DNA of 64,000 nt from Rubripirellula sp. (GCA_965216875.1 OZ244207.1:1952001-2016000), one strand, 5' to 3'; positions 8,348 to 54,904 are shown, numbered from the stretch's first letter. Translations and numbers: made by a program. Notes: a model not told the origin generated them from the letters alone.

Positions 8348-8401
8348 CGCCAGTTCAACTTGCTTGACGTGGGTGATCGCGGCGGGAAACAAGAGGGCAA
8401 T

Positions 8402-8980
8402 GTGACCGAAATCGACTCAGAGAGACTTGCACAGATTGAGCGAATCAACGTGATAGGCACGTCCGGCAGTGGCAAGTCGACGTTTGGCCGGCAACTGGGC
8501 GCGACGCTCGGTATCCCGTTCATCGAAATGGACAGCGTTTATTGGGGCAAGAGTTGGACAGAACCTTCCGATGACGTATTCATCCCGCAGATCAAGGAGA
8601 TCACGGAGCGTTCTCGCTGGGTGCTTGACGGCAATTACTCTCGAACCACACCGGTCAAATGGCGTTTGGTCCAGTTGGTCGTTTGGCTTGACATGTCGTT
8701 TGCCCGAACCATCACACGTGTCACATCGCGAAGTTTGAAACGGTCGCTCGACGATACCGAGATATGGCCCGGCACCGGCAATCGAGAAACGTTTGGGAGG
8801 GCGTTTCTCTCACGAGAGTCGGTCATTCTTTGGGCGATCACGAGCTACCGGCGAAACCGTCAACGATATGCGATGATGATGAACGCAGAAGAGTATCGCC
8901 ACATATGGTTTGTGCGATTGAAGTCGCCCCGTGAAGTCGAGGCCTTCCTTCAGTCCGCCCAAGAGGCTGCTGAGATATGA
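8402..8980 (+). CDS. adenylate kinase-like / FlaR-type P-loop protein
   Basis: RINVIGTSGSGKSTF Walker A, WVLDGNYS motif; GTG start with a GAGG RBS. Confidence 0.8.
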   Translation: MTEIDSERLAQIERINVIGTSGSGKSTFGRQLGATLGIPFIEMDSVYWGKSWTEPSDDVFIPQIKEITERSRWVLDGNYSRTTPVKWRLVQLVVWLDMSFARTITRVTSRSLKRSLDDTEIWPGTGNRETFGRAFLSRESVILWAITSYRRNRQRYAMMMNAEEYRHIWFVRLKSPREVEAFLQSAQEAAEI

Positions 8981-9022
8981 AATGCTGCGTAGGTGCGTTA
9001 TGTTTAGATTGTTGGATCGAAG

Positions 9023-9691
9023 ATGCTAAGTCGACTTAACGAAGCTGGCGGTACGACGTTGGTCCTTGCCGAGGGCGATGACCTCAGTTCCGTTCCCACT
9101 TCGCATCGGGACCTGATTAACAATTCGATCCGCCAGGCCTTTTGCGACCCAATGCAGTACTTTGCGACGATCGCAGAACGCATTCAGATTGCGAGCTTGC
9201 AAAGGTATCTCGGCAGGTTTGTTGCAGACGGAAATTGGTCGCTGGTGTTGGCAGACACCTACATGGTCGAGCGCGCTACGATTGCTGCGTTTCAGTGGTT
9301 TCACGCGGATCAACGCTCTTGCATGTTTGGTCTGCCAACCGGGGATTGTGATGACGTGCGCTTCGCGCCCATTTACGAGCTCTTTTCGTTGGTGCATTGG
9401 GAATCGGTTGGATTCGGCGGAGGGATCGTGCCGTATCGTGACCATCTCGCCGTCGCCGATTACTCCGCGGCGTCAATAAACCCCGCATTTCCTGCTGATT
9501 CCACGACCGTGTTTGGTACCTCTGCGTGCGGTGATATGATGGTCTGCAACGCTTCAGGTGATGCCGGGTATTTGTCTCACGACCAGGGAACGTCCTACGT
9601 TGTCGGTTCGTTATCTGAAATGCTTGATTGGGTCTTCGGCGAGCTCATCCGGGGGCGGACGCCAGAGATGGACCCCGTTCGGTACCGATAG
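9023..9691 (+). CDS. hypothetical protein, possibly SUKH/SMI1-KNR4-like
   Basis: 222-aa ORF. The C-terminal FGTSACGDMMVC..GYLSHD..SLSEMLD resembles the SUKH core. Confidence 0.55.
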   Translation: MLSRLNEAGGTTLVLAEGDDLSSVPTSHRDLINNSIRQAFCDPMQYFATIAERIQIASLQRYLGRFVADGNWSLVLADTYMVERATIAAFQWFHADQRSCMFGLPTGDCDDVRFAPIYELFSLVHWESVGFGGGIVPYRDHLAVADYSAASINPAFPADSTTVFGTSACGDMMVCNASGDAGYLSHDQGTSYVVGSLSEMLDWVFGELIRGRTPEMDPVRYR

Positions 9692-9760
9692 TTAGCGTTT
9701 CGCAGATGACATGCGCCTGGGGCGTTGGTGTGTTGTCGGCGTCTTTCGAGCGAGGTTAGG

Positions 9761-10189
9761 ATGAGTCCGCTAGCGACAATTGATGCGGTAGTCGAAGTCA
9801 CTCCATGGGATGATTTGCAGTATTGGCCCGACGCCGAGATCGATTGGTATTTCGTTGACGATCGCACTCCGTTTCGGTTTCGTGTTGCCGGCCAAATCAT
9901 TATTGATGGGATGTTCATTGGTCTGCACGGGCCCGTGCAAAGCGGCCCCGAACGATATTCAAATCTCCTTTGCAGCATTACCATTCGAGACATGGCAGAC
10001 TGGCGCACTGAATCGGAAGGTAGCGCAAACTTCAAGGTGGCGCCGACCGTTGTGAAACGCGCAGACGATTATGATCCTGCGATTCACGGTGGCTTTCCGT
10101 TCTACAGACACCCGGAAGGACTTCGCGCAAAGGGGTTTCCGCGGAGTTCCCGATTTGCCGGCGTCTCGGTCGTCTGTAGCCCTGGTTGA
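9761..10189 (+). CDS. hypothetical protein
   Basis: ORF with a GAGG RBS before ATG 9761. Confidence 0.55.
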   Translation: MSPLATIDAVVEVTPWDDLQYWPDAEIDWYFVDDRTPFRFRVAGQIIIDGMFIGLHGPVQSGPERYSNLLCSITIRDMADWRTESEGSANFKVAPTVVKRADDYDPAIHGGFPFYRHPEGLRAKGFPRSSRFAGVSVVCSPG

Positions 10190-10356
10190 GCGAGCCAAAA
10201 CGCTGACCGCGTTATCGGCATTAGGGAATGTCGTGAAGAAGGCATGCGCCAATGGACGAGAGCGGTTTTGTTGTGGTACGCTTCTCTCACTTCCTGATGT
10301 GGAGATCACATTGGCGGAGTTCTTGATCTCCGATGGCAGGCGGCTCGATCGATTCT

Positions 10357-11106
10357 ATGTTTGGCTGGTTTAAAGCGCGGTGCCCCGTCGATGTCGCTGC
10401 AAAGCAGTGGATTGAAAACCGTCTCCATTGGCTTTCGGATCAGTTTGGTCGGCACACTTTCACACGCCGCGCCGTCATCCTGCCGACAAATGAATTCTTT
10501 CCCGATCCGATGGATGGGACCGAAGCGAGCGTTCGGAATCTGTTGGACCAGGTATGCCGGTACATGGAGGTCGACCCAAGGCTTGTGGCGCTTGAGATCT
10601 TTACCAATACGAACGAGCTTTGGTTGGTCAACGACGATGGCAAGTACCTTCCCACGGGGGCAGCGGGCCTTTACGAGCAGCGGGTTGGGAAAACGATCAT
10701 TCACATCGAAACATCGGAGTTGATGAACCTTCCCGGGCTTGTGGGCACGATGGCCCATGAGCTAGCTCACCTGCGGTTGATCGGCGAAGGGCGAGTGACG
10801 GGGCACGAATTCGACAATGAACTGCTCACCGATTTAACGGCCGTCTTTCATGGGTTTGGCATTTTCCTCGGTAATTCGCCGCGAAATTGGGATAGCCAAT
10901 ACAGCCGTTGGCCGGGAACGGAGCTCAAACGCCCCGAATACATGACGCTGCCGATGTTCGCCTATGCACTCGCTCATGCGGCTTGGTTTCGCGGGCAACG
11001 CAAACCAGACTGGTACCCGTTTTTATCCTTCGATCTCAAGCCTTGTTTCAAACAGGGATTGCGTTACTTGATCGAGTCAGAAGACTCCATATTTCATCCT
11101 GGATGA
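10357..11106 (+). CDS. hypothetical zinc metalloprotease-like protein (HExxH)
   Basis: MAHELAHLRL motif followed by NELLTD. Confidence 0.7.
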   Translation: MFGWFKARCPVDVAAKQWIENRLHWLSDQFGRHTFTRRAVILPTNEFFPDPMDGTEASVRNLLDQVCRYMEVDPRLVALEIFTNTNELWLVNDDGKYLPTGAAGLYEQRVGKTIIHIETSELMNLPGLVGTMAHELAHLRLIGEGRVTGHEFDNELLTDLTAVFHGFGIFLGNSPRNWDSQYSRWPGTELKRPEYMTLPMFAYALAHAAWFRGQRKPDWYPFLSFDLKPCFKQGLRYLIESEDSIFHPG

Positions 11107-11140
11107 CGCGGCCTAACCCCTTTTTCCGAACAAACAAAAA

Positions 11141-11572
11141 ATGCTGCAGCTGGTTCTTTTCTTCGTGGTTGCGTTTCCCTTTGCTTGGCTCGTGTCGGAG
11201 TTCTATGAAAACCGGAGAGTTCGAATCGGGCTCGGCGTTTGTTCGCTCGCAATGTCATTTGGTGTCGCGTGGCTCGTTGGTTCGCTCGACCGGCTTGGAT
11301 CCAATATCTACTTTTCCGAAGCGACGAAGGATCTGATACAAAACACGATTGTCGAACTTGAGAACGAGCGTACCGACATTGTGCTGAGGGAGTTGAAGGT
11401 CCTCCGCACCGATTTTCGACCGACCTACGAGACACGCGACGAATATGATGTTTTGGTCGACCGATACATCCACGCGATCGCTGCGTCCCCGATCGAGCAT
11501 GAAGGCGGTGATCCGCTCTGGTCCCACGAGCATGTTGAGCCGACAAGCGGTGATGATGGAAGCTCGCGTTGA
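11141..11572 (+). CDS. hypothetical membrane protein
   Basis: Two N-terminal hydrophobic helices. Confidence 0.6.
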   Translation: MLQLVLFFVVAFPFAWLVSEFYENRRVRIGLGVCSLAMSFGVAWLVGSLDRLGSNIYFSEATKDLIQNTIVELENERTDIVLRELKVLRTDFRPTYETRDEYDVLVDRYIHAIAASPIEHEGGDPLWSHEHVEPTSGDDGSSR

Positions 11573-11719
11573 ACCGAAAGCGGCGGCGAGTTTCCTTAGG
11601 TCAGGTGTGCAGTGTTGAATCAGAGTTCCAACAATTGGGGGCTACAGAGATGGTTGATTCCGATTCACCGAGAGCCCAATTGCATCGGCAGAACACGCTA
11701 GATTGGGAGGCTGGTCCAA

Positions 11720-12301
11720 GTGAAGAAGGATGAGGCCATTGACCGATTACGCGACGGTGGCGGTCGATTTGGCAAGCAACCCTACAAGACGGTTGCGCTG
11801 GTGTGTGGGGTCGTCTGGTCGATCGTTGTCGCGATGATTGCGATACCGATCGCTTGCCTGTGTGTCCTACTTCTACTAGCGCCCTTCTTTCTTTGCGAGC
11901 GACTAGGAAAGTTCCGATGGCTTCCGTTGACGTCTGCGGTGCATTTGGTGGCCGTCGTGTTGATCGCAAACGTTCTATTCGGAGCAACGATTGCGATTTG
12001 TGTCGGTGTCCTGATCTTGGGGAACTTGCTTTCGACGCTCTCGATCTTTCCGCGGCCGCGCGTGTTGCGCGCGGTTTGCAACGCAGTCGACAATTTGCAA
12101 GGGCCGATGGGCAAGAAACTGTTTTACCGACGCATTCGAGTTCACAATGTGACGTCAGAATACTGCGATCTCGAGCTTGAATTGCGTGAATTCACGATCC
12201 CACCGCTATCTGAATGTTGTCGGGTCTACGACGCCTCCGGAATGGTTGGAGAGATTCCGATCGACGAGTACCCCTATCCGTGCCCTAATCCGTTTATCTA
12301 A
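11720..12301 (+). CDS. hypothetical membrane protein
   Basis: Several TM segments; GGAGG RBS upstream of the GTG. Confidence 0.55.
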   Translation: MKKDEAIDRLRDGGGRFGKQPYKTVALVCGVVWSIVVAMIAIPIACLCVLLLLAPFFLCERLGKFRWLPLTSAVHLVAVVLIANVLFGATIAICVGVLILGNLLSTLSIFPRPRVLRAVCNAVDNLQGPMGKKLFYRRIRVHNVTSEYCDLELELREFTIPPLSECCRVYDASGMVGEIPIDEYPYPCPNPFI

Positions 12302-12456
12302 ACACTTGGCAGATGGCCAACTGTTTGCCTCTTAGTCGTGGCTGCGGAAAGGGAACTACTGGGGAATTCAGAGTGAGTACTGATTCAGTGATTGTCTTTG
12401 TTGGTGAGGGTGGCCAGACTTGTACGGTGAACTACTCCCTTGCGCGGAAACAAACC

Positions 12457-12984
12457 ATGCGATACGCATCCACTCTTTTGGCGATCCTATTTTTCGGCAG
12501 TCACGCCGATGCTCAACTCATTGTGGTCAAGGGCAAGCACATGACGGTTGAGGTGGCATCGGATGTCCCGCCGGAACTGCGCGGTGATGTGACGCTGTCA
12601 TTCAGAGCCCTCGATACGTTCTTTGACGGTGGTTCGCAGGGAGCGGATTTCCGAATCAATGGCCAGAGCAAGTTGCTGCTCTTCTTTCCGCATGTTAGAT
12701 ATTGGACGGCTGACGCACGGGAGAAACAGACGCAACCGGTCGGCGTGCTCAAAAGGCGCGACGGAAAGCAAGTGCTCGTGGAGATCAAGCCGAGTTCGAA
12801 GTTCAATTCGCGGGTCGCCGACTTGATTGACGCTGACGTTTCCTCCGGCAGTCATTCCGCTGAAGAGGTCGCGACGCTCAAACGCGTGGCGAAGAGCGTT
12901 CGAAAGCGGACGGTGCTCAAAGAGATCGCCGATCGTATGGACCCCAGCACGGGCGAGCTCAAGAAGGTCGACCCGTCTGATTGA
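12457..12984 (+). CDS. hypothetical exported protein
   Basis: Signal peptide MRYASTLLAILFFGSHADA. Confidence 0.6.
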   Translation: MRYASTLLAILFFGSHADAQLIVVKGKHMTVEVASDVPPELRGDVTLSFRALDTFFDGGSQGADFRINGQSKLLLFFPHVRYWTADAREKQTQPVGVLKRRDGKQVLVEIKPSSKFNSRVADLIDADVSSGSHSAEEVATLKRVAKSVRKRTVLKEIADRMDPSTGELKKVDPSD

Positions 12985-35784: not shown

Positions 35785-35801
35785 TCATCCAATCAGCCGC
35801 G

Positions 35802-37559
35802 CTAGTGCTTTTCTGCGATTGCGATGGGGACGGTTGGCTGCGGCGCGGTTGGAGGCGCGACCATCGTTTCGAGGAACGCAACCAATGCGTGGCGATCTTC
35901 GACAGGCAGGTTCAGGAAACGGTCTCGCGTTCCTGCAGCCTCTCCTTCGTGCATCGCGATCGCTTCGAGCAATGTTCCGGCGCGACCATCGTGCAGGTAG
36001 GGCGCCGAATCCTTGACGCCCCAAAGCGGCGGTGTACGCCACTCTTGGTTGAACTTTGTTTGCTCGTAGTGCACGTAGGCAACGGTGGTCTCTTGAACGG
36101 TACGCCGGATCGTCCTTTTCGTTGTCGTTTCGCCAACCTGGCGTCCAACCGTTTTGTTGGTTCGACGGTCGACGATCTCGCGATCGATGTCCTGGGTGTC
36201 GGTTTTGACAACCGGCTTCAAACGTCTCGTCTGAGTGCCTAGCGTGATCTGCCGTCCCTTGGGCGGCATGGTGGGTGCGATGAATCGAAAACCTGCACGC
36301 GTCAAGAAACCGGGCCTCTCACGACCTGAACTTGACGATCCGACGCCAGCGACGCTGGTCTGGTTAGACGACATCATTGACGAGCCGCCGTAGTAGCCGG
36401 TTGTGTTCGTATTCCTTTCTGTTTGAACGTTCGTCGAGGATCCGGTAACGAACTTGCGTGTGGAAACGCCCACCCGGTAGGGTTCAGCGGGGTTCAAGTC
36501 GAACGACTCAGGGCCCATGTCGTGTAGCAGAAGATCCGAGTAGAGTCCCTGAGCGGGCCCCAAGTTCGGGACATGGCATACGGCGCAACCGACCGAGCCG
36601 AAAACGTGTTCGCCTCGCAACACCTCATTGCGAAGGTCGGAATCCTCGGGGATTTGACGCACAGGTGCGGGAAGCGCAGCAACAAAGGAGGTCATGGTCC
36701 GAATTTGCACGTCCGAAATATCGTCTCCAGGATTTCGATATCTCGGCACCGTTGGATCGGCTGGCTGATTCATGCGAGCCGTTTCCAGGCCAACTTCGTT
36801 CGCGCAGGCTTGGTCGTTGAACTCCAGTAGACTGCCAACGTTGCCGCGCCAGCCAAATTTGCCAACGCGTCCGTCATCAAGGGTCGAAGGTCGTCCGCTA
36901 ATCTCGGGATGCCTCTTTTGTACGCGAGCCTGATGTTCAATCACCGCGTCGGGCACTCGGTCGATCACTCCACTTCCAAACAGCGAGGTCGTGTTGCGCT
37001 GGAAGAGTCTGGCACGTACGGAAACGTCATAGAGTCCAACGCGTTTTTGGAAATCGATCGGACCGTTGTTCGCACTTCGAATCTCCTCGGCTGACGTTGG
37101 GCCGCCAAGCTCACTGAACTCAGCCGGGATGTTGGCCAGAAACTTTTCACTCGCTTGCCGATAAGTTGCCGTACCGCCGTGGTGTGCAAGGGGTGCGGTA
37201 TTGACCATCACTCCATTACGTACAAAGCCAGGGTGAAAGGCGTTGAGCACGGTGGCAAGGACATCGTTATCGACGCGCCGGTGGCCCGTCGGACGGATGT
37301 TCATCGTTTCGATGGCAACGGTCTGTGCATTGAAGCGTGAATCGCCTCCGCCCCCGATGCCGCCTTGGTGATGACAGGCGACGCAACTTCTCGCGTTAAA
37401 GAGGGGCCCCAGTCCATCGCTGCCAGCGACGGGATCACGCGGCGACCAGTCTTGTTCGAAGAGTACTTGGCCTTGTTGAATGGAATTTGGTGATGCGGCA
37501 TCGGTACGACCGCCAATCACTGACACCGCCACAGCGGCTGCCAAAAACATTCTGCCCAT
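35802..37559 (-). CDS. di-heme oxidoreductase (DHOR/DUF1111) family protein, paralog 1
   Basis: GLGPLFNARSCVACH, GKFGW, GCAVCH and EWRTPPLWG..YLHDGRA motifs. Confidence 0.85.
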   Translation of the reverse strand: MGRMFLAAAVAVSVIGGRTDAASPNSIQQGQVLFEQDWSPRDPVAGSDGLGPLFNARSCVACHHQGGIGGGGDSRFNAQTVAIETMNIRPTGHRRVDNDVLATVLNAFHPGFVRNGVMVNTAPLAHHGGTATYRQASEKFLANIPAEFSELGGPTSAEEIRSANNGPIDFQKRVGLYDVSVRARLFQRNTTSLFGSGVIDRVPDAVIEHQARVQKRHPEISGRPSTLDDGRVGKFGWRGNVGSLLEFNDQACANEVGLETARMNQPADPTVPRYRNPGDDISDVQIRTMTSFVAALPAPVRQIPEDSDLRNEVLRGEHVFGSVGCAVCHVPNLGPAQGLYSDLLLHDMGPESFDLNPAEPYRVGVSTRKFVTGSSTNVQTERNTNTTGYYGGSSMMSSNQTSVAGVGSSSSGRERPGFLTRAGFRFIAPTMPPKGRQITLGTQTRRLKPVVKTDTQDIDREIVDRRTNKTVGRQVGETTTKRTIRRTVQETTVAYVHYEQTKFNQEWRTPPLWGVKDSAPYLHDGRAGTLLEAIAMHEGEAAGTRDRFLNLPVEDRHALVAFLETMVAPPTAPQPTVPIAIAEKH

Positions 37560-37692
37560 CGAAAAAGTCCCCGCAGAGAGAAAACACAAAGAGTTGTTTT
37601 TTGCGGGTGGGGCTACGTCGATTTTAGCGCAAGCAACGTTTGGAAGTCAAATACATTTCTGGCGTTCATGCGAACGTGGCAAAATCCATGTT

Positions 37693-37872
37693 CGTGCGTG
37701 CAAGCACACACGCTACATCACCTCGTGCTCGTGCTCGTGCTCGAATGAGGCGGGGTGTTTCGACAAGCCCTGGAACCTTGCCACAGGGCGGTGCGAGTAC
37801 CGCGTTGCTGAGCAGGAGCGCTCGCACGCTCCACTGCATCTTGTGCCTCGTGCGTGCAAGCACGCACGCTAC
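37693..37872. repeat. two direct family-A REP variants (minus orientation) with a (GTGCTC)n stretch between them
   Basis: CGTGCGTGCAAGCAC(A/G)CACGCTAC at 37693-37716 and 37849-37872. Confidence 0.75.
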
Positions 37873-37898
37873 TTAAATGGGGTGCACCCTACTTGGGA

Positions 37899-39671
37899 TC
37901 ACTCCACGGCGGCGATGGGCACGGTTGGCTGCGGAGCGGACGGTGGAGCGACCATGGTTTCCAAGAAGGCGACCAACGCGTGTCGATCTTCAACGGAAAG
38001 GTTCAAGAAACGATCGCGTGTTCCCGCGGCTTCCCCTTCGTGTAGCGTAATCGCTTCGAGCAACGTTCCTGCTCGCCCGTCGTGCATGTAAGGAGCGGAG
38101 TCGGCGACGCCCCAAAGTGGCGGCGTGCGCCACTCCTGGGTAATCGTGGTCGGTTCGAAGTAGACCACGGCCGTACCGCCCTCGTCTTTGCGACTGAGAG
38201 TGGTCCGCGTTGTTCTTCGTTCACCAGAACGAGTTCCAACGGCACGCCGCGTACGGCGGTTGATGATCGTTTGCTCAACCGCTTCGGTCGACGATTCGAC
38301 GTTCCGCTCCAGGTGCGTCACGCGCGTTCCCAAGTCGATCACTTTTGATTTGCCGGGCCGAGTCGGGGCATTAAAGAGATAAGCTGACCGGGCAACACCC
38401 CTAGCGCCTACTCGCTGGGCATCTCGGGCGGGACCAGCGCTACGATCAGCCATCGAGCGATTGTCGGCGACGCTTCCCGTCGACATGGTCGCCGAACCAC
38501 CGTAGTAGCCCGTCGTGTTTTGGCTCATCTCGGTGCGGGTGGATGTCGTGTCACGCGCCACATATTTCTGAACGGCAAACCCAATTCGATACGGTTCTGC
38601 TGGGTTCAGGTCGAATGATTCGGGGCCCATATCGTGAAGCAACAAATCCGAATACACGCCGAGGGCTGGACCCATGTTCGGGACGTGGCAAACGGCACAA
38701 CCGACCGACGCAAACACGTGCTCGCCGCGTTCCACTTCGGCTCGAAGTTCGGAATCTTCGGGGATGCGACGCATGGGTGCGGGCAGGGCCGCGACGAACG
38801 AGGTCATCGTTCGGATTTGATTGTCCGAAATGTCATGGCCGGGGTTTCGGTAACCGGGGACCGTTGGGTCACCAGGCTGCGTCATACGAGCCGTTTCGAG
38901 ACCGACTTCGTTGGCACATGCTTGATCATTGAATTCAACCAAGCTTGCAACATTGCCACGCCAACCAAATTTGCCGACACGGCCATCGTTCAAAGTCGAA
39001 GGACGCCCAGAAATCTCGGCGTGATGCTTTTGAGCGCGAGCTTGTTGTTCAATCAGCTTTTCTGGTACCTGATCGATCAGGCCACTGCCAAACAGTGACG
39101 TGGTGTTTCGTTGAAATAGCCTCGCACGCACGGCAACATCGAAGTGCCCAACGGTCTTTTGAAAGTCGATCGGTCCGTTGTTTGCTTTCCGCGTTTCCTC
39201 GGATGTTGTTGGTCCGCCAAACTCGCTGAATGTGGCCGGAATGTTTGCCAGGAATTTCTTGCTCGCCTCGCGATAGGCAACGGTTCCACCGTGGTGTACC
39301 AGCGGCGCCGTGTTGACCATCAACCCGTTGCGAACGAAGCCTGGATGGAAGGCGTTCAAAACCCGAGCGACGACGTCGTCATCGACCCTGCCAAGTGCTT
39401 TCGGCACAATCGACATGTGCTCGATCGCCACCGTTTGTGCGTTGAACCGAGAATCGCCACCACCGCCGATGCCACCCTGATGATGACAGGCAACGCAGCT
39501 TCGAGCGTTAAAGAGTGGCCCTAGGCCATCACTACCCACGGTCGGATTCCGTGATGACCACTCTTGCTCGAAAAGAGCTTGGCCCTGTTGGATTGACGCC
39601 GGCGAAGTGGCCCATAGGTTCGCACCCATAGCCGTAGCAGCCATTGCGACCGCTAATGTCAACGTGCGCAT
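37899..39671 (-). CDS. di-heme oxidoreductase (DHOR/DUF1111) family protein, paralog 2
   Basis: Same motifs as paralog 1; signal peptide MRTLTLAVAMAATAMG. Confidence 0.85.
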   Translation of the reverse strand: MRTLTLAVAMAATAMGANLWATSPASIQQGQALFEQEWSSRNPTVGSDGLGPLFNARSCVACHHQGGIGGGGDSRFNAQTVAIEHMSIVPKALGRVDDDVVARVLNAFHPGFVRNGLMVNTAPLVHHGGTVAYREASKKFLANIPATFSEFGGPTTSEETRKANNGPIDFQKTVGHFDVAVRARLFQRNTTSLFGSGLIDQVPEKLIEQQARAQKHHAEISGRPSTLNDGRVGKFGWRGNVASLVEFNDQACANEVGLETARMTQPGDPTVPGYRNPGHDISDNQIRTMTSFVAALPAPMRRIPEDSELRAEVERGEHVFASVGCAVCHVPNMGPALGVYSDLLLHDMGPESFDLNPAEPYRIGFAVQKYVARDTTSTRTEMSQNTTGYYGGSATMSTGSVADNRSMADRSAGPARDAQRVGARGVARSAYLFNAPTRPGKSKVIDLGTRVTHLERNVESSTEAVEQTIINRRTRRAVGTRSGERRTTRTTLSRKDEGGTAVVYFEPTTITQEWRTPPLWGVADSAPYMHDGRAGTLLEAITLHEGEAAGTRDRFLNLSVEDRHALVAFLETMVAPPSAPQPTVPIAAVE

Positions 39672-51155: not shown

Positions 51156-52109
51156 ATGTTGCTAACAGAACTATTCACTTTTTCGAAGGCTGCCCAAGTT
51201 GAGCCAGTTTCGCGTCAGCGTCGCGCATCGATCGCGCTCGGCGGCGGAGGCGCTCGCGGACTTGCACACTTGGGCGTCATGCAAGCGATCGGCGAGTCAG
51301 GAGTTCAAACCGAGCAAATCGTTGGCGTCAGCATGGGAAGTCTGGTCGGCGCACTCTGTGCCGTCGAGTCAGATTTCCAACGCGTGCAGGCGAAAGCGAT
51401 TGAACTTCTGCGCTCGCCGATCTTCCAACTCAAGCAGGAGATGCTATTCGGCGCCGAGATGCCAACTGAAGACGCCGAAGCGTCGGGAAGCTATTTTGCG
51501 TGGTATGGGCGTATCAAGAAGTACTTGGCGACACATCGAAAGCTTTCGCGAGCCGTCACAAGTCCCGCGTTGATGAGCGATCTGCCGCTTGTCGAAGCCG
51601 TTGACTACTTATTGCCCGACATTCAGATTCAAGAGACAGCGACCCCGCTGGCGATTGTTGCGATCGATCTCTACAGCGGTCATCGCGTTGTTTTAGAACA
51701 TGGATCGCTACGCGATGCCGTGCGGGCGTCGATCGCGATTCCTGGGTTTTTCCCGCCCGTACCATGGGGCGACATGTTGTTGTGCGACATCGGCGTCTTT
51801 GATGCGCTACCCGCTGAGCTCGCAAGAACCTATGCGAGTGACCTCACGATTGGTGTCGATGTGGGACAGGAGCATACGTCGATCAATCAATGTGCAACGG
51901 CGCTCGATGTGATGACGCGGATGCAAGATCTCGGGGAACTGATGCTCCGACGGCATACGCTGCAAGCTGCCGACCTGATCATACGCCCCGACGTGGGCAA
52001 CGTCGCTTGGTTCGATTTTCGCGAACCCGAACGATTGATTGAAGCCGGTCGCAAGTCCGCACATCGCGCACTCGCACGCTTTCTGGTTGAGGAGACTCAC
52101 GCGGCCTAG
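51156..52109 (+). CDS. patatin-like phospholipase
   Basis: GGGGARG, GVSMG nucleophile, DIGV in place of DGG. Confidence 0.88.
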   Translation: MLLTELFTFSKAAQVEPVSRQRRASIALGGGGARGLAHLGVMQAIGESGVQTEQIVGVSMGSLVGALCAVESDFQRVQAKAIELLRSPIFQLKQEMLFGAEMPTEDAEASGSYFAWYGRIKKYLATHRKLSRAVTSPALMSDLPLVEAVDYLLPDIQIQETATPLAIVAIDLYSGHRVVLEHGSLRDAVRASIAIPGFFPPVPWGDMLLCDIGVFDALPAELARTYASDLTIGVDVGQEHTSINQCATALDVMTRMQDLGELMLRRHTLQAADLIIRPDVGNVAWFDFREPERLIEAGRKSAHRALARFLVEETHAA

Positions 52110-52130: not shown

Positions 52131-52211
52131 GTAGGGTGTGTGCTTGCACGCACCAGCAACAAGTTTCGAGTCGACGGCTGGAGGTTTGGTGCGTGCAAGC
52201 ACACACCCTAC
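52131..52211. repeat. family-A REPIN 1
   Basis: 24-bp inverted arms around a 33-bp spacer. Confidence 0.9.
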
Positions 52212-52231
52212 GCAAACAGCGTGTCGTGGTA

Positions 52232-52600
52232 CTACCAACCGAAGTAGATCCGGTCGGCAACCCAAATCGTCACCAGCGGCGCGGCGGCGATCGACGCAAG
52301 CGAGAGTGTCATCAGCCTGGACCACCACGGAAGCGGACCCGCGAATGTCACGAAGGCACCATGGCTCAGGATGGTGACGCCTGCGAGAATTGGGTTTCGC
52401 AGCACCAACGCAAATTGGGTCGGACCCGCACAGTTCCCGCAGGAGCTGGTCAAGACTCCGCTTGTGATGTCGGGGATCAGAAGAGCGGCCCAAAGGAGAA
52501 GCACCATTTGCATCGTACCGAACCATGACAGCATGGTCGGCATCGGAACATCAAGCTGCGTCTCTTTAAGAGTGCCCCTGTCATCGGGCCGCTGCGCCAT
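52232..52600 (-). CDS. small hypothetical membrane protein (cassette 1)
   Basis: 122-aa hydrophobic ORF filling the space between REPIN 1 and REPIN 2. Confidence 0.55.
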   Translation of the reverse strand: MAQRPDDRGTLKETQLDVPMPTMLSWFGTMQMVLLLWAALLIPDITSGVLTSSCGNCAGPTQFALVLRNPILAGVTILSHGAFVTFAGPLPWWSRLMTLSLASIAAAPLVTIWVADRIYFGW

Positions 52601-52640
52601 GTCTCAAACCCCAAGAAAGGTGTCAGGACCAATTCTCATT

Positions 52641-52720
52641 GTAGGGTGTGTGCTCGCACGCACCAGCAACCGATTTGGAAGCGATCGTTGGGATTTGGTG
52701 CGTGCAAGCACACACCCTAC
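52641..52720. repeat. family-A REPIN 2
   Basis: Inverted arms around a 32-bp spacer. Confidence 0.9.
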
Positions 52721-52752
52721 GAAGTGGACCAGAAACAAGGGTGCCAGCTTCT

Positions 52753-53241
52753 CTACGCGTTGAGAAAGTCCCACAATCGCAGCGACACTCGGTCGGAATC
52801 TTCGGATAGGTGTTGCCTGAGGACAGATTTCCATTCATCGAGAGATTCGGGGGTGTACCCAACCGGAGCGGTGGTCATCGAATGCCATCTGCCTGTGAAG
52901 AAGCCACGATCGAGTGGCGGAAAATCGATCAAGATGAGATCGCGGTTTCCAAATGGGAGTATTCTTCGAACCTTTCTTGTACCGCGTTTCATTTGCCATG
53001 CGCGGCCGACTCGAAAGTGGCAATCGCCGAGTCTCGAGCGCAGTTTCCAAGAGCCCCAGGTGAGTTCGAGGTGCGAATTCGCGAAGGCGACGACCGGCAA
53101 TGAACTGCGGTTTGCCAGCAGCAGCGGTCCCTGCTTCCAAAGCTCAAAAAGGTGTTCCGGTATGGATTCAACGATCTTAATCTGCCGGGCCGGTCGTTCG
53201 CTCAAAATGGTTGCTCCCAATGAACAGTAATAGTCACCCAT
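52753..53241 (-). CDS. hypothetical protein (cassette 2)
   Basis: MGDYYCSLG...WDFLNA*, about 162 aa, between REPIN 2 and REPIN 3. Confidence 0.55.
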   Translation of the reverse strand: MGDYYCSLGATILSERPARQIKIVESIPEHLFELWKQGPLLLANRSSLPVVAFANSHLELTWGSWKLRSRLGDCHFRVGRAWQMKRGTRKVRRILPFGNRDLILIDFPPLDRGFFTGRWHSMTTAPVGYTPESLDEWKSVLRQHLSEDSDRVSLRLWDFLNA

Positions 53242-53278
53242 TAGGCACATTCGAGTCCGCAAGGCGGCGCCCTTTTCT

Positions 53279-53360
53279 GTAGGGTGTGTGCTCGCACGCA
53301 CCAGCAACAGTTTTCGATTCGACTGCAGGAGGTCTTGGTGCGTGCAAGCACACACCCTAC
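53279..53360. repeat. family-A REPIN 3
   Basis: Inverted arms around a 34-bp spacer. Confidence 0.9.
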
Positions 53361-53365
53361 GCAAG

Positions 53366-53674
53366 TCAGATCTGTATGGCCCATCCGGCGTCGCTGACAC
53401 TCTCGTTCTTGTCCAGCGTCAAGCACAACGCGAAGCCGCCACCACCACGCGTGTGCGGCTTGCCAACGAAGAAAAAGTAGGTGAGCTGCTCTTGTCCGTC
53501 TGGGCCGTGACGGCCCGAATAGTCACTGCTTCCGAGCACGCCGACGATTTGGGACTTGGTCGTGCCAATGAGAGATTCAAGCTCCGGCCGCGAAAAGTCC
53601 TGAGGGTAGCTCCCTTCTGGCAAGAGGCGGATCGATTCAAGCGTCTCGTGTAGTTCGGTCAACAGCGGGTTCAT
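53366..53674 (-). CDS. small hypothetical protein (cassette 3)
   Basis: MNPLLTEL...GWAIQI*, 102 aa. LIGTTKSQIVGVLGSSD resembles the SmpA/BLIP-like motif. Confidence 0.55.
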   Translation of the reverse strand: MNPLLTELHETLESIRLLPEGSYPQDFSRPELESLIGTTKSQIVGVLGSSDYSGRHGPDGQEQLTYFFFVGKPHTRGGGGFALCLTLDKNESVSDAGWAIQI

Positions 53675-53762
53675 GAGCAAAGGGGTATGTTCTTGTGTTT
53701 GCCGGAAATGAACGTTGGTGGGTCTATTCAATCCAAAAAGCGTGTCAGGACTCAGTCCCGAC

Positions 53763-53840
53763 GTAGGGTGTGTGCTCGCACGCACCAGCAACAAGATTCG
53801 ATTCCACCACGAGAAATTTTGTGCGTGCAAGCACACCCAC
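53763..53840. repeat. family-A REPIN 4 (right arm degenerate)
   Basis: GTAGGGTGTGTGCTCGCACGCACC...GTGCGTGCAAGCACACCCAC. Confidence 0.85.
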
Positions 53841-53876
53841 GTCGCGAAGCCTAAATGAGGCCTCACAACCCTTCTA

Positions 53877-54392
53877 CTAGTCGTTAGGGGTGAAGTCGAG
53901 CTGTACAAACGGGCGAGGCTTCTCTTCTGAGAAGGGCTGCAGGATTTTGGCCGGCTTGTCATCAACGGAGCGAAAAACATCGGGCAACGGCAGTAGCTCA
54001 TCAAGGTATTCGAGTGCCACTTTTCCATGCAGCGCCTTCACGTCGCCGTTTCGAGCCCATGTGCCGCATGTTCCGCAGAGGGTTACCATCGAGGACGGTT
54101 TGCCCGGCCGCTTGATCGTTACAGCATAGGCGGGGCTGTGTCCACAAAAGGGTACGTTTGGATCGTCTGCTAGCTCCTTGCGTAAGATTTTCTTCAGTTT
54201 CGCCGCCTCGGCAACGTTTAGCCGACGCATCCCCAGAATGTCTGCTTCCCTCTTTTGCCATTGGGTCGACATCGTCGTTTCGTCCTCGATCGCACCGCGT
54301 GGATCGAGCAAATGAATGACAACGCGCTCAGGCTCACCTGCTCCGACAGAAGCGACGATGGCTATTGTGAAAAGGGCAACGAAACTTCGCAT
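53877..54392 (-). CDS. exported hypothetical protein (cassette 4)
   Basis: Signal peptide MRSFVALFTIAIVASVGA; PFCGHSP and LCGTCG Cys motifs. Confidence 0.65.
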   Translation of the reverse strand: MRSFVALFTIAIVASVGAGEPERVVIHLLDPRGAIEDETTMSTQWQKREADILGMRRLNVAEAAKLKKILRKELADDPNVPFCGHSPAYAVTIKRPGKPSSMVTLCGTCGTWARNGDVKALHGKVALEYLDELLPLPDVFRSVDDKPAKILQPFSEEKPRPFVQLDFTPND

Positions 54393-54439
54393 GACATTGA
54401 CCTGCAAATTCAAGTATTCAATCGAGCTCGAGGAGGTTT

Positions 54440-54463
54440 GGTGCGTGCAAGCATACGCCCTAC
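54440..54463. repeat. family-A half REPIN 5 (right arm only)
   Basis: GGTGCGTGCAAGCATACGCCCTAC, preceded by GGAGGTTT as in the REPIN 1 spacer. Confidence 0.8.
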
Positions 54464-54478
54464 GGGGTTATGAAGCGT

Positions 54479-54823
54479 CTAATCATCCATGGTGGCGTTG
54501 ACGTTGAATGGTTTTGAAAACCACACCAAGACTCCGATGGCGATGAACAGTCCCGACAGGATGAAGGTCAAGATGCGCATATAAATGTGCAAACCTCCCA
54601 CCGCTCGCACACGCGCTTCGACCGAATAGTCGGGCATCGCATACTCGGCTTGAAATGCCTCAACCTGTTGTTGGTCGATCAAGCGATAGGTGCTGAATTC
54701 ATGCACGGTGGCAATCGCATGCGCGTCGTGAATCCCCATGATAAGCAGCGGCAAAAACCAGGAAAGGACGGTGCCGAAGATGCAAAGCATGAGCAGAGTT
54801 TTTCGATGCTTCATGCTTTCCAT
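54479..54823 (-). CDS. small two-TM hypothetical protein (cassette 5)
   Basis: MESMKHRKTLLMLCIF...NATMDD*, two hydrophobic helices. Confidence 0.6.
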   Translation of the reverse strand: MESMKHRKTLLMLCIFGTVLSWFLPLLIMGIHDAHAIATVHEFSTYRLIDQQQVEAFQAEYAMPDYSVEARVRAVGGLHIYMRILTFILSGLFIAIGVLVWFSKPFNVNATMDD

Positions 54824-54824
54824 T

Positions 54825-54904
54825 GTAGCGTGTGTGCTTGCACGCACGAATCCTACAAAACCGAACGTGGTCCTTAGATTGGTGCGTGCGAGCACACACC
54901 CTAC
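54825..54904. repeat. family-A REPIN 6 overlapping the queG stop
   Basis: Inverted arms; the minus-strand GTAG supplies the TAG stop at 54901-54903. Confidence 0.88.

What the first reader, a model, noticed from the sequence alone, without database searches (positions are those of the whole stretch)
52131..54904. REPIN-delimited single-gene cassette array (integron-like layout built from REP hairpins)
Seen in sequence: six family-A elements start at 52131, 52641, 53279, 53763, 54440 (half) and 54825, with arms GTAGGGTGTGTGCTYGCACGCACC. They strictly alternate with five short, unrelated ORFs of about 100-170 aa. Each ORF nearly fills its gap and all lie on the minus strand, directly downstream of queG. 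The spacers of elements 1-4 all begin AGCAAC, and elements 1, 3 and 5 share GGAGGT near the right arm, so the elements are oriented alike. Established: GTAG-REPs are substrates of RAYT/TnpA(REP) HUH nucleases, and one gene per recombination hairpin is the hallmark of integron arrays. Inference: this may be a REP-based gene capture or shuffling platform, with cassettes inserted at ssDNA hairpins by an enzyme encoded elsewhere and perhaps expressed by read-through from queG. No integrase or RAYT is present in the window.
Basis: partly seen in the sequence, partly recalled or inferred. Interest (0 to 1): 0.82.

Follow-up and report, generated by a model that had tools for sequence, protein, structure and literature searches.

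The report
Hairpin repeats housing ex-integron genes
In a planctomycete bacterium, five small unrelated genes, two of them from families that are swappable integron cassettes in relatives, sit between copies of a DNA hairpin repeat instead of integron sites, and a single-strand DNA-cutting enzyme likely built this row by copying the hairpin and likely pulling the genes in.

Summary
The array is real: six GTAG REP doublets alternate with five short minus-strand genes between patatin and queG. None of 50,000 permutations gave such a run. Doublets 1-5 are local copies of one ancestor in direct orientation; doublet 6 is unrelated. The repeat is a RAYT-type REP, since a relative has a RAYT flanked by it, but none of this genome's 12 RAYT-like genes is. 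It is not an integron: no attC here. Yet genes 2 and 5 belong to families that are attC cassettes in other Pirellulaceae, and this genome has four attC arrays. A congener holds different genes at this site. Two other REP-gene-REP blocks occupy sites empty in congeners. Against capture: sister REPs also flank conserved genes, attC-less arrays without REPs exist, and only 1 of 8 independently found cassette homologues is REP-bracketed. Best reading (0.45): RAYT-driven REPIN copying with gene capture. Main rival (0.38): REPINs hopped into the gaps of an existing accessory cluster. Gene sequestration by REP units was proposed in 2012, and this scan noted similar arrays in other genomes (unchecked). 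New variant of a known kind.

The parts
51156..52109 (+). Patatin-like phospholipase gene, left anchor
   Evidence: PF01734; 80% identical and syntenic in congener G002
52131..52211 (.). REP doublet E1, intact arms, 33-nt spacer
52232..52600 (-). Gene c1, 122 aa, hydrophobic, no family; weakest gene call
   Evidence: no Pfam/NCBIfam/PADLOC hit; 1 weak match in 250 family genomes; none
52616..52630 (-). Short leader motif 10 nt from E2, shared with the c3 leader; remnant of another, rare repeat
   Evidence: 4 matches to the pattern in the genome, 2 of them here; family D8
52641..52720 (.). REP doublet E2, sister spacer, most diverged of the complete four
52753..53241 (-). Gene c2, up to 162 aa (homologues about 149 aa, so the start may lie about 13 codons in); attC-cassette family; predicted PH-like fold (weak)
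   Evidence: 27 homologues; attC on both sides in L080 and L081; pLDDT 84.9, best Z 6.6, rmsd 3.3, 82 aligned
53279..53360 (.). REP doublet E3, closest to E1
53366..53674 (-). Gene c3, 102 aa, rare family; best homologue has an extra hydrophobic N-terminus
   Evidence: 0 of 250 family genomes; 3 homologues among 1.84 billion representatives
53737..53752 (-). Second copy of the leader motif, 10 nt from E4
53763..53843 (.). REP doublet E4, right arm decayed (5 of 24 mismatches)
   Evidence: 9 substitutions at 53805-53835 in the related strain of run X6
53877..54392 (-). Gene c4, 171 aa, hydrophobic N-terminus, conserved cysteines
   Evidence: 3 of 250 family genomes, 34-61% identity, non-syntenic; covered in run X6
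54407..54463 (.). Half element E5: sister spacer plus right arm, left arm absent
54479..54823 (-). Gene c5, 114 aa, two hydrophobic segments; attC-cassette family; start codon 1 nt from E6
   Evidence: 5 of 250 genomes; attC within 81 nt downstream in 5 of 6 loci
54825..54904 (.). REP doublet E6, unrelated spacer; its terminal tag supplies the queG stop codon
54901..56010 (-). queG (epoxyqueuosine reductase), right anchor and inferred source of read-through
   Evidence: PF08331, PF13484; syntenic in G002

Best explanation
Five unrelated accessory genes, at least two from integron-cassette families, sit without attC sites between six REP doublets, five of them co-oriented copies of one ancestor, and the row was likely built by a RAYT (HUH nuclease) encoded elsewhere that likely copied the resident doublet and joined in a gene-sized piece of single-stranded DNA at each step. 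Shown: the layout, the sister relation of E1-E5, the RAYT association of this REP in a relative, the cassette origin of the c2 and c5 families, the lack of attC. Inferred: nicking and strand transfer by a RAYT, stepwise capture, selection for intact genes facing the same way as queG, expression by read-through, and later loss of blocks by recombination between the direct repeats. The enzyme may be lost from this genome or be one of its two related RAYTs.
For: Run of 6 of 6 gaps, never reached in 50,000 permutations. Other runs of short co-oriented genes hold a repeat in only 10 of 126 inner gaps and the four attC arrays hold 1 among 73 genes, so free gaps are not generally filled. Neighbouring repeat elements 0.4-3 kb apart are each other's top-two relatives in 36 of 119 homologous pairs, 32 direct, against 411 of 19,639 distant pairs, 202 direct. 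Two REP-gene-REP blocks sit at sites empty in both congeners, inside tandem REP units with a truncated unit at the junction; a homologue of one of those genes is an attC cassette. A REP heads three tandem 430-nt units, so gene-sized flanks are copied with REPs here. RAYT P0030 in G189 is flanked by this REP type. PMC3333891 section 25 proposes BIME integration at REP targets and sequestration of whole genes.
Against: None of 12 RAYT-like ORFs has this REP within 1.5 kb; the nearest are 53% and 49% identical to P0030. Sister REPs also flank conserved syntenic genes (2 of 8 loci tested) and housekeeping-type genes. Of 8 homologues of cassette genes found outside arrays without circular selection, 1 has repeats on both sides, 2 on one, 5 on none; background for both sides is 2.8%. 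A seven-gene attC-less cluster in this window has no inner REP. The congener's four genes at this site are not separated by repeats. Spacers show no clear gradient along the array and E6 is unrelated. No common junction signature was found.
Confidence: 0.45

Rival explanations
1. The genes collected first at an insertion hotspot between two convergent genes, as an eroded cassette cluster that had lost its attC sites. A REP doublet then hopped locally, gap after gap, in one orientation, and selection removed hops into genes. The repeats would be passengers, not joints.
For: Local co-oriented copying across conserved genes is common here. The site is a hotspot without interleaved repeats in G002. 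attC-less clusters of cassette-like genes exist with no or few REPs. REPs favour convergent gaps, 508 of 989. PMC3333891 allows insertion at a distance from a resident BIME.
Against: It needs four to five hops that all land in gaps making up about 14% of the stretch; elsewhere this family gives only 8 adjacent pairs (2.7 expected) and no triple. Comparable clusters are mostly unfilled. No attC remnant at any junction.
Confidence: 0.38
2. Units of gene plus REP move by host recombination between REP copies, without a RAYT step at the moment of insertion: DNA from conspecific strains recombines in at a doublet, and direct repeats delete or duplicate blocks.
For: E1 and E4 share about 33 nearly identical leading bases. 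The REP is nearly restricted to this lineage: 183 arms here, 1-9 in 6 of 200 family genomes. No cognate RAYT is evident.
Against: It does not explain how a cassette gene first lost attC and gained two co-oriented sister doublets; the shared stretch is short for RecA-type exchange (my knowledge, not tested).
Confidence: 0.1
3. The genome's integron integrase uses the REP hairpins as substitute attC sites, so this is a satellite cassette array.
For: A tyrosine recombinase lies beside the 42-attC array; c2 and c5 are cassette families; the doublets form long single-strand hairpins.
Against: No attC-like sequence and no complementary core sites at the gene ends; the hairpin stems are near-perfect, without the bulged bases that integrases need (PMC8266576 passage); integrase insertion would keep attC and would not duplicate the target.
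Confidence: 0.04

Closest known systems
REPIN-RAYT / REPtron, GTAG REPs with TnpA-REP (PMC3116915, PMC2817692, PMC3733652, PMC8266576; passages read)
   Same: GTAG-tagged short palindrome, inverted doublets forming hairpins, about 200 intergenic arms, lineage-restricted, RAYT flanked by the same REP type in a relative, several REP families in one planctomycete genome.
   Different: Published clusters are tandem repeats of near-identical REPINs with repeated flanks; here each unit between sister doublets is a different intact gene. No cognate RAYT found in this genome.
BIME excision, amplification and gene sequestration model (Ton-Hoang et al., PMC3333891, section 25 read in full; supplement S7 not seen); rayt 3' ends captured in BIMEs (PMC2817692, passage)
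   Same: Proposes single-strand circles, integration at REP-bearing targets and capture of whole genes or fragments between REPs.
   Different: The published cases are neighbouring host genes or rayt ends; here five foreign genes in series, two from integron-cassette families.
CALIN and sedentary chromosomal integrons (PMC4889954, PMC8352920; passages read)
   Same: Co-oriented short genes of unknown function, one per hairpin, no local integrase, gene families shared with attC arrays.
   Different: No attC, no attI-like dock, no core-site complementarity; delimiter is a genome-wide REP.

Membership tests
GTAG REP / REPIN | GTAG tag plus short palindrome | tested here: met
   24-nt arm folds as tag plus 8-bp stem and 4-nt loop
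GTAG REP / REPIN | High copy number, dispersed, inverted doublets | tested here: met
   207 arms, 37 doublets, 121 clusters
GTAG REP / REPIN | A RAYT gene flanked by the same REP | tested here: met
   In G189: P0030, NF047646 198 bits over cut-off 80, flanked by variants of this REP
GTAG REP / REPIN | Cognate RAYT present in this genome | tested here: not met
   0 of 12 RAYT-like ORFs has this REP within 1.5 kb; cross-recognition by related RAYTs not tested
GTAG REP / REPIN | RAYT cleaves and rejoins the element | not testable with these tools
   needs in vitro assay
Integron / CALIN | attC site after each gene | tested here: not met
   Sequence profile from this genome's attC sites finds 97 sites in four arrays, none here; not a covariance model, IntegronFinder not available
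Integron / CALIN | Complementary core and inverse-core sites at cassette ends | tested here: not met
   Best 8-mer complementarity 6-7, shuffle P 0.24-1.0 for all five
Integron / CALIN | Short co-oriented genes from the cassette pool | tested here: met
   c2 and c5 homologues are attC-bounded; c1 0 of 1 and c4 0 of 3 loci had attC hits; c3 had no locus to test
Integron / CALIN | Integrase in the genome | tested here: met
   PF00589 match beside the 42-attC array, about 190 kb from this array; IntI-specific domain not tested
Ordered tandem REPIN/BIME cluster | Co-oriented sister doublets | tested here: met
   E1-E5
Ordered tandem REPIN/BIME cluster | Repeated flanking or linker sequence between units | tested here: not met
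   Five unrelated genes; only a 15-16-nt leader motif recurs twice
Mobile cassette array (any recombinase) | Gain, loss or reordering with breakpoints at the repeats | tested here: inconclusive
   Congener too distant and lacks the repeat; no contig of run X6 bridges the array

The most novel reading that the evidence does not exclude
REP doublets and RAYTs form a second, integrase-free gene-capture platform that draws on the integron cassette pool: genes leave attC arrays, lose attC and are re-housed one per REP doublet downstream of a core gene, where recombination at the doublets can add or drop them. This would give domesticated RAYTs the host-level function that the field has been looking for.
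Probability: 0.3. Interest if true: 0.85.

Novelty: new variant of a known kind. Interest (0 to 1): 0.55.

Why it matters
Why bacteria keep RAYT genes and their REP repeats is an open question (10.1101/2024.07.17.603846 passage). A clean five-gene array whose genes trace to integron cassette families makes one answer, gene acquisition, directly testable with defined substrates, a candidate enzyme (P0030) and a related strain. If the repeats only filled gaps afterwards, the locus still documents strong local, orientation-keeping REP copying and shows that REP-punctuated clusters can mimic integrons.

Tried and rejected
Run X6 (another study) holds a related strain; its contigs give no cover over c1, c2 and c3, and the patatin contig ends and the c4 contig begins in a left REP arm. 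No contig bridges the place and the listed joints have sides under 30 or come from other REP loci, so this is a lead only. No RNA holder listed, so expression is untested. No sigma-70-like promoter found, 0 against 2.1 in shuffles; uninformative for this phylum. Rfam gave only chance hairpin matches below gathering scores. Metagenome scan with patatin gave 4 loci, two short and two unrelated; viral scan with the c2 alignment gave none; order-level search found c2 in 0 of 300 genomes. ESM Atlas: no usable hit for c2, leads under 0.9 for c3. Foldseek on c2: nothing at E 0.001. An apparent half attC upstream of the gene at genome 4691748, seen by eye, scored nothing: rejected. The idea that c1-c5 were moved from the end of the 237-246 kb attC array, where a half REP has the flank most like E1 (12 of 14), fails on orientation and is weak statistically. 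Junction base bias (T before the tag in 3 of 5 left arms against 15%) too small to use. None of 11 attC-negative homologue loci was REP-bracketed; one had another kind of repeat array. REP families other than this one were mapped only as unlabelled high-copy k-mer elements (15-mers in 15 or more copies), so low-copy repeats are missed and per-family counts are open.

Full report
Setting. The window lies at 1,952,001-2,016,000 of a closed 8.26-Mb genome, 56% GC. Relatives are Pirellulaceae, and the closest congener, G002, is titled Rubripirellula sp..

Observation. Six elements, E1-E6, alternate with five minus-strand ORFs, c1-c5, between a patatin gene and queG. E1-E3 have intact arms, the right arm of E4 has 5 mismatches, E5 lacks its left arm, E6 has 1-2 mismatches per arm. 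The arm occurs 207 times in the genome at up to 4 mismatches; this is the only cluster with gene-sized gaps throughout. With my own gene model (c2 corrected by hand) it occupies 134 of 5,702 gaps, and a run of six was reached in 0 of 50,000 permutations matched for gap type. Spacers of E1-E5 are homologous and co-oriented; the spacer of E6 is not related. Most other doublets of the family have unique spacers, so E1-E5 were copied locally.

The repeat. It is a GTAG REP forming REPIN-type doublets. It is nearly restricted to this lineage: 183 arms here at up to 2 mismatches, 1-9 in 6 of 200 family genomes, 1 in G002. Of 12 fetched loci with this REP in other genomes, one (G189) has it on both sides of a RAYT, P0030. 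In this genome a profile search found 12 RAYT-like ORFs; none has this REP within 1.5 kb, and six are flanked on both sides by other high-copy repeats. The nearest are 53% and 49% identical to P0030.

The genes. None has a Pfam, NCBIfam or PADLOC family above cut-off. In 250 family genomes c1 matched 1 (weakly), c2 10, c3 0, c4 3 and c5 5. c2 has 27 homologues with many invariant columns and a confident model with a weak PH-like resemblance. I built a sequence profile from them: 97 sites in four arrays of 15, 8, 42 and 32, one beside a tyrosine recombinase. The profile finds nothing in this array and nothing in 225,582 control bases. It finds attC directly on both sides of 2 of 4 full-length c2 homologues, with hits in 7 of 13 c2 loci (one fragment locus left out), and within 81 nt downstream of 5 of 6 c5 homologues; 0 of 3 c4 loci and 0 of 1 c1 locus. 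So at least two of five genes come from the integron cassette pool but have no attC or core-site remnant here.

The site in relatives. G002 keeps patatin and queG adjacent but holds 4.3 kb with four other ORFs, none related to c1-c5, and one GTAG doublet of another sequence at the queG stop. None of 17 other loci holds both anchors or any c gene; some are short. Contigs of run X6, from another study, cover patatin to the left arm of E1 (17 differences in 314 nt), the left arm of E4 through c4 (34 in 590), and the end of c4, E5, c5, E6 and most of queG without gaps (56 in 1,574). The c4-c5 part with its half element is therefore shared with a strain 94-98% alike. E4 differs at 9 places in 31 nt, much more than the genes do, so the 20-35% spread among spacers (my hand estimate) need not mean great age.

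Genome-wide pattern. A k-mer map gave 1,214 repeat elements. Neighbours 0.4-3 kb apart are each other's top-two relatives in 36 of 119 homologous pairs, 32 of them direct; at 6-15 kb in 2 of 81; among distant pairs in 411 of 19,639, 202 direct. I tested 8 of the 32 direct loci against G002 and G001, chosen because they did not look like housekeeping genes, with no matched control. Two sites are empty in both congeners, one gene is missing at its place in G002, two genes are conserved in place, one is present but inverted in G002, two lie at synteny breaks. At the two empty-site loci the gene sits inside tandem REP units next to a truncated unit, and a homologue of one is an attC cassette. Others of the 32 are housekeeping-type genes or RAYTs. 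An unbiased test went against a main role for REPs: 114 cassette proteins found 11 homologues outside arrays; leaving out 3 circular ones, 1 of 8 has repeats on both sides, against 2.8% of all genes. attC-less clusters of cassette-like genes without inner REPs exist, one in this window. On the other hand such runs of short genes hold a repeat in only 10 of 126 inner gaps, so six of six with five sisters is exceptional. All 8 ends of the four attC arrays abut a repeat element; the length-matched background is about 35-58% and two ends are copies, so this is suggestive only.

Mechanism. Shown: layout, local copying of the doublet, RAYT association of the REP, cassette origin of two families, absence of attC. 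Inferred: a RAYT nicks single-stranded DNA near the doublet and transfers strands, copying the doublet and joining in gene-sized DNA; intact genes facing as queG are kept and read through; direct repeats later allow loss of blocks. I put this at 0.45, later colonisation of an existing cluster at 0.38, host recombination at the repeats at 0.10 and integrase use of the hairpins at 0.04.

Literature. PMC3333891 (passages; section 25 whole) shows cleavage and strand transfer in vitro and proposes insertion near resident BIMEs and sequestration of genes; its supplement S7 was not seen and may hold closer cases. Passages only: PMC3116915, PMC2817692, PMC3733652, PMC8266576, PMC4889954, PMC8352920, 10.1101/2024.07.17.603846. 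Eight searches listed no paper on REP-delimited arrays of integron-type genes; subscription journals are largely outside the library. Earlier unchecked notes of this scan describe similar arrays in at least five other genomes.

Verdict. A real and unusual REPIN-punctuated array of accessory genes. It is a member of the REP/REPIN family, not of integrons, though it is laid out like one and shares their gene pool. Whether the repeats captured the genes or followed them is open. New variant of a known kind; interest 0.55.

Noticed in passing
window 8360-12984: Seven short co-oriented cassette-like genes with no attC and no inner REP, bounded by repeat elements; one is 49% identical to a cassette of this genome's attC arrays. 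Looks like an eroded cassette array.
   Followed up: partly
L079 165-3236 (G061): A close c2 homologue lies in an array of short co-oriented genes, each preceded by a 33-nt directional repeat (5 copies) that is neither attC by my profile nor a stable hairpin. Possibly a third cassette architecture.
   Followed up: partly
L071 3231-3259 (genome 246231-246259): A half REP of this family closes the 15-attC array; its inner flank best matches E1 and E5 (12 and 11 of 14).
   Followed up: partly
genome 237-246 kb, 1142-1148 kb, 1786-1817 kb, 3521-3543 kb: All eight ends of the four attC arrays abut high-copy repeat elements, with only one such element inside.
   Followed up: partly
L064 4452-5697 and L060 4407-6600: Single or paired foreign genes inside tandem REP units at sites empty in two congeners; one carries an R2K ATP-grasp domain.
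   Followed up: yes
genome 2211585-2214901: Four co-oriented cassette-like genes partly punctuated by this REP family and another; an intermediate state.
   Followed up: partly
genome 4192343-4193243: Three tandem 430-nt units, each headed by a REP.
   Followed up: no
genome 1748140-1750153: A 477-aa transposase-like gene (near-identical copies elsewhere) between 104-nt repeat copies 99% alike.
   Followed up: no
genome 4452000-4457850 (L063): Accessory genes after a tRNA-like sequence, separated by long composite sister repeats; also holds a doublet of the rare motif seen in the c1 and c3 leaders.
   Followed up: no
window 35800-39600: Two long diverged direct repeats about 2.1 kb apart, 74-78% alike, probably tandem paralogous genes.
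   Followed up: no
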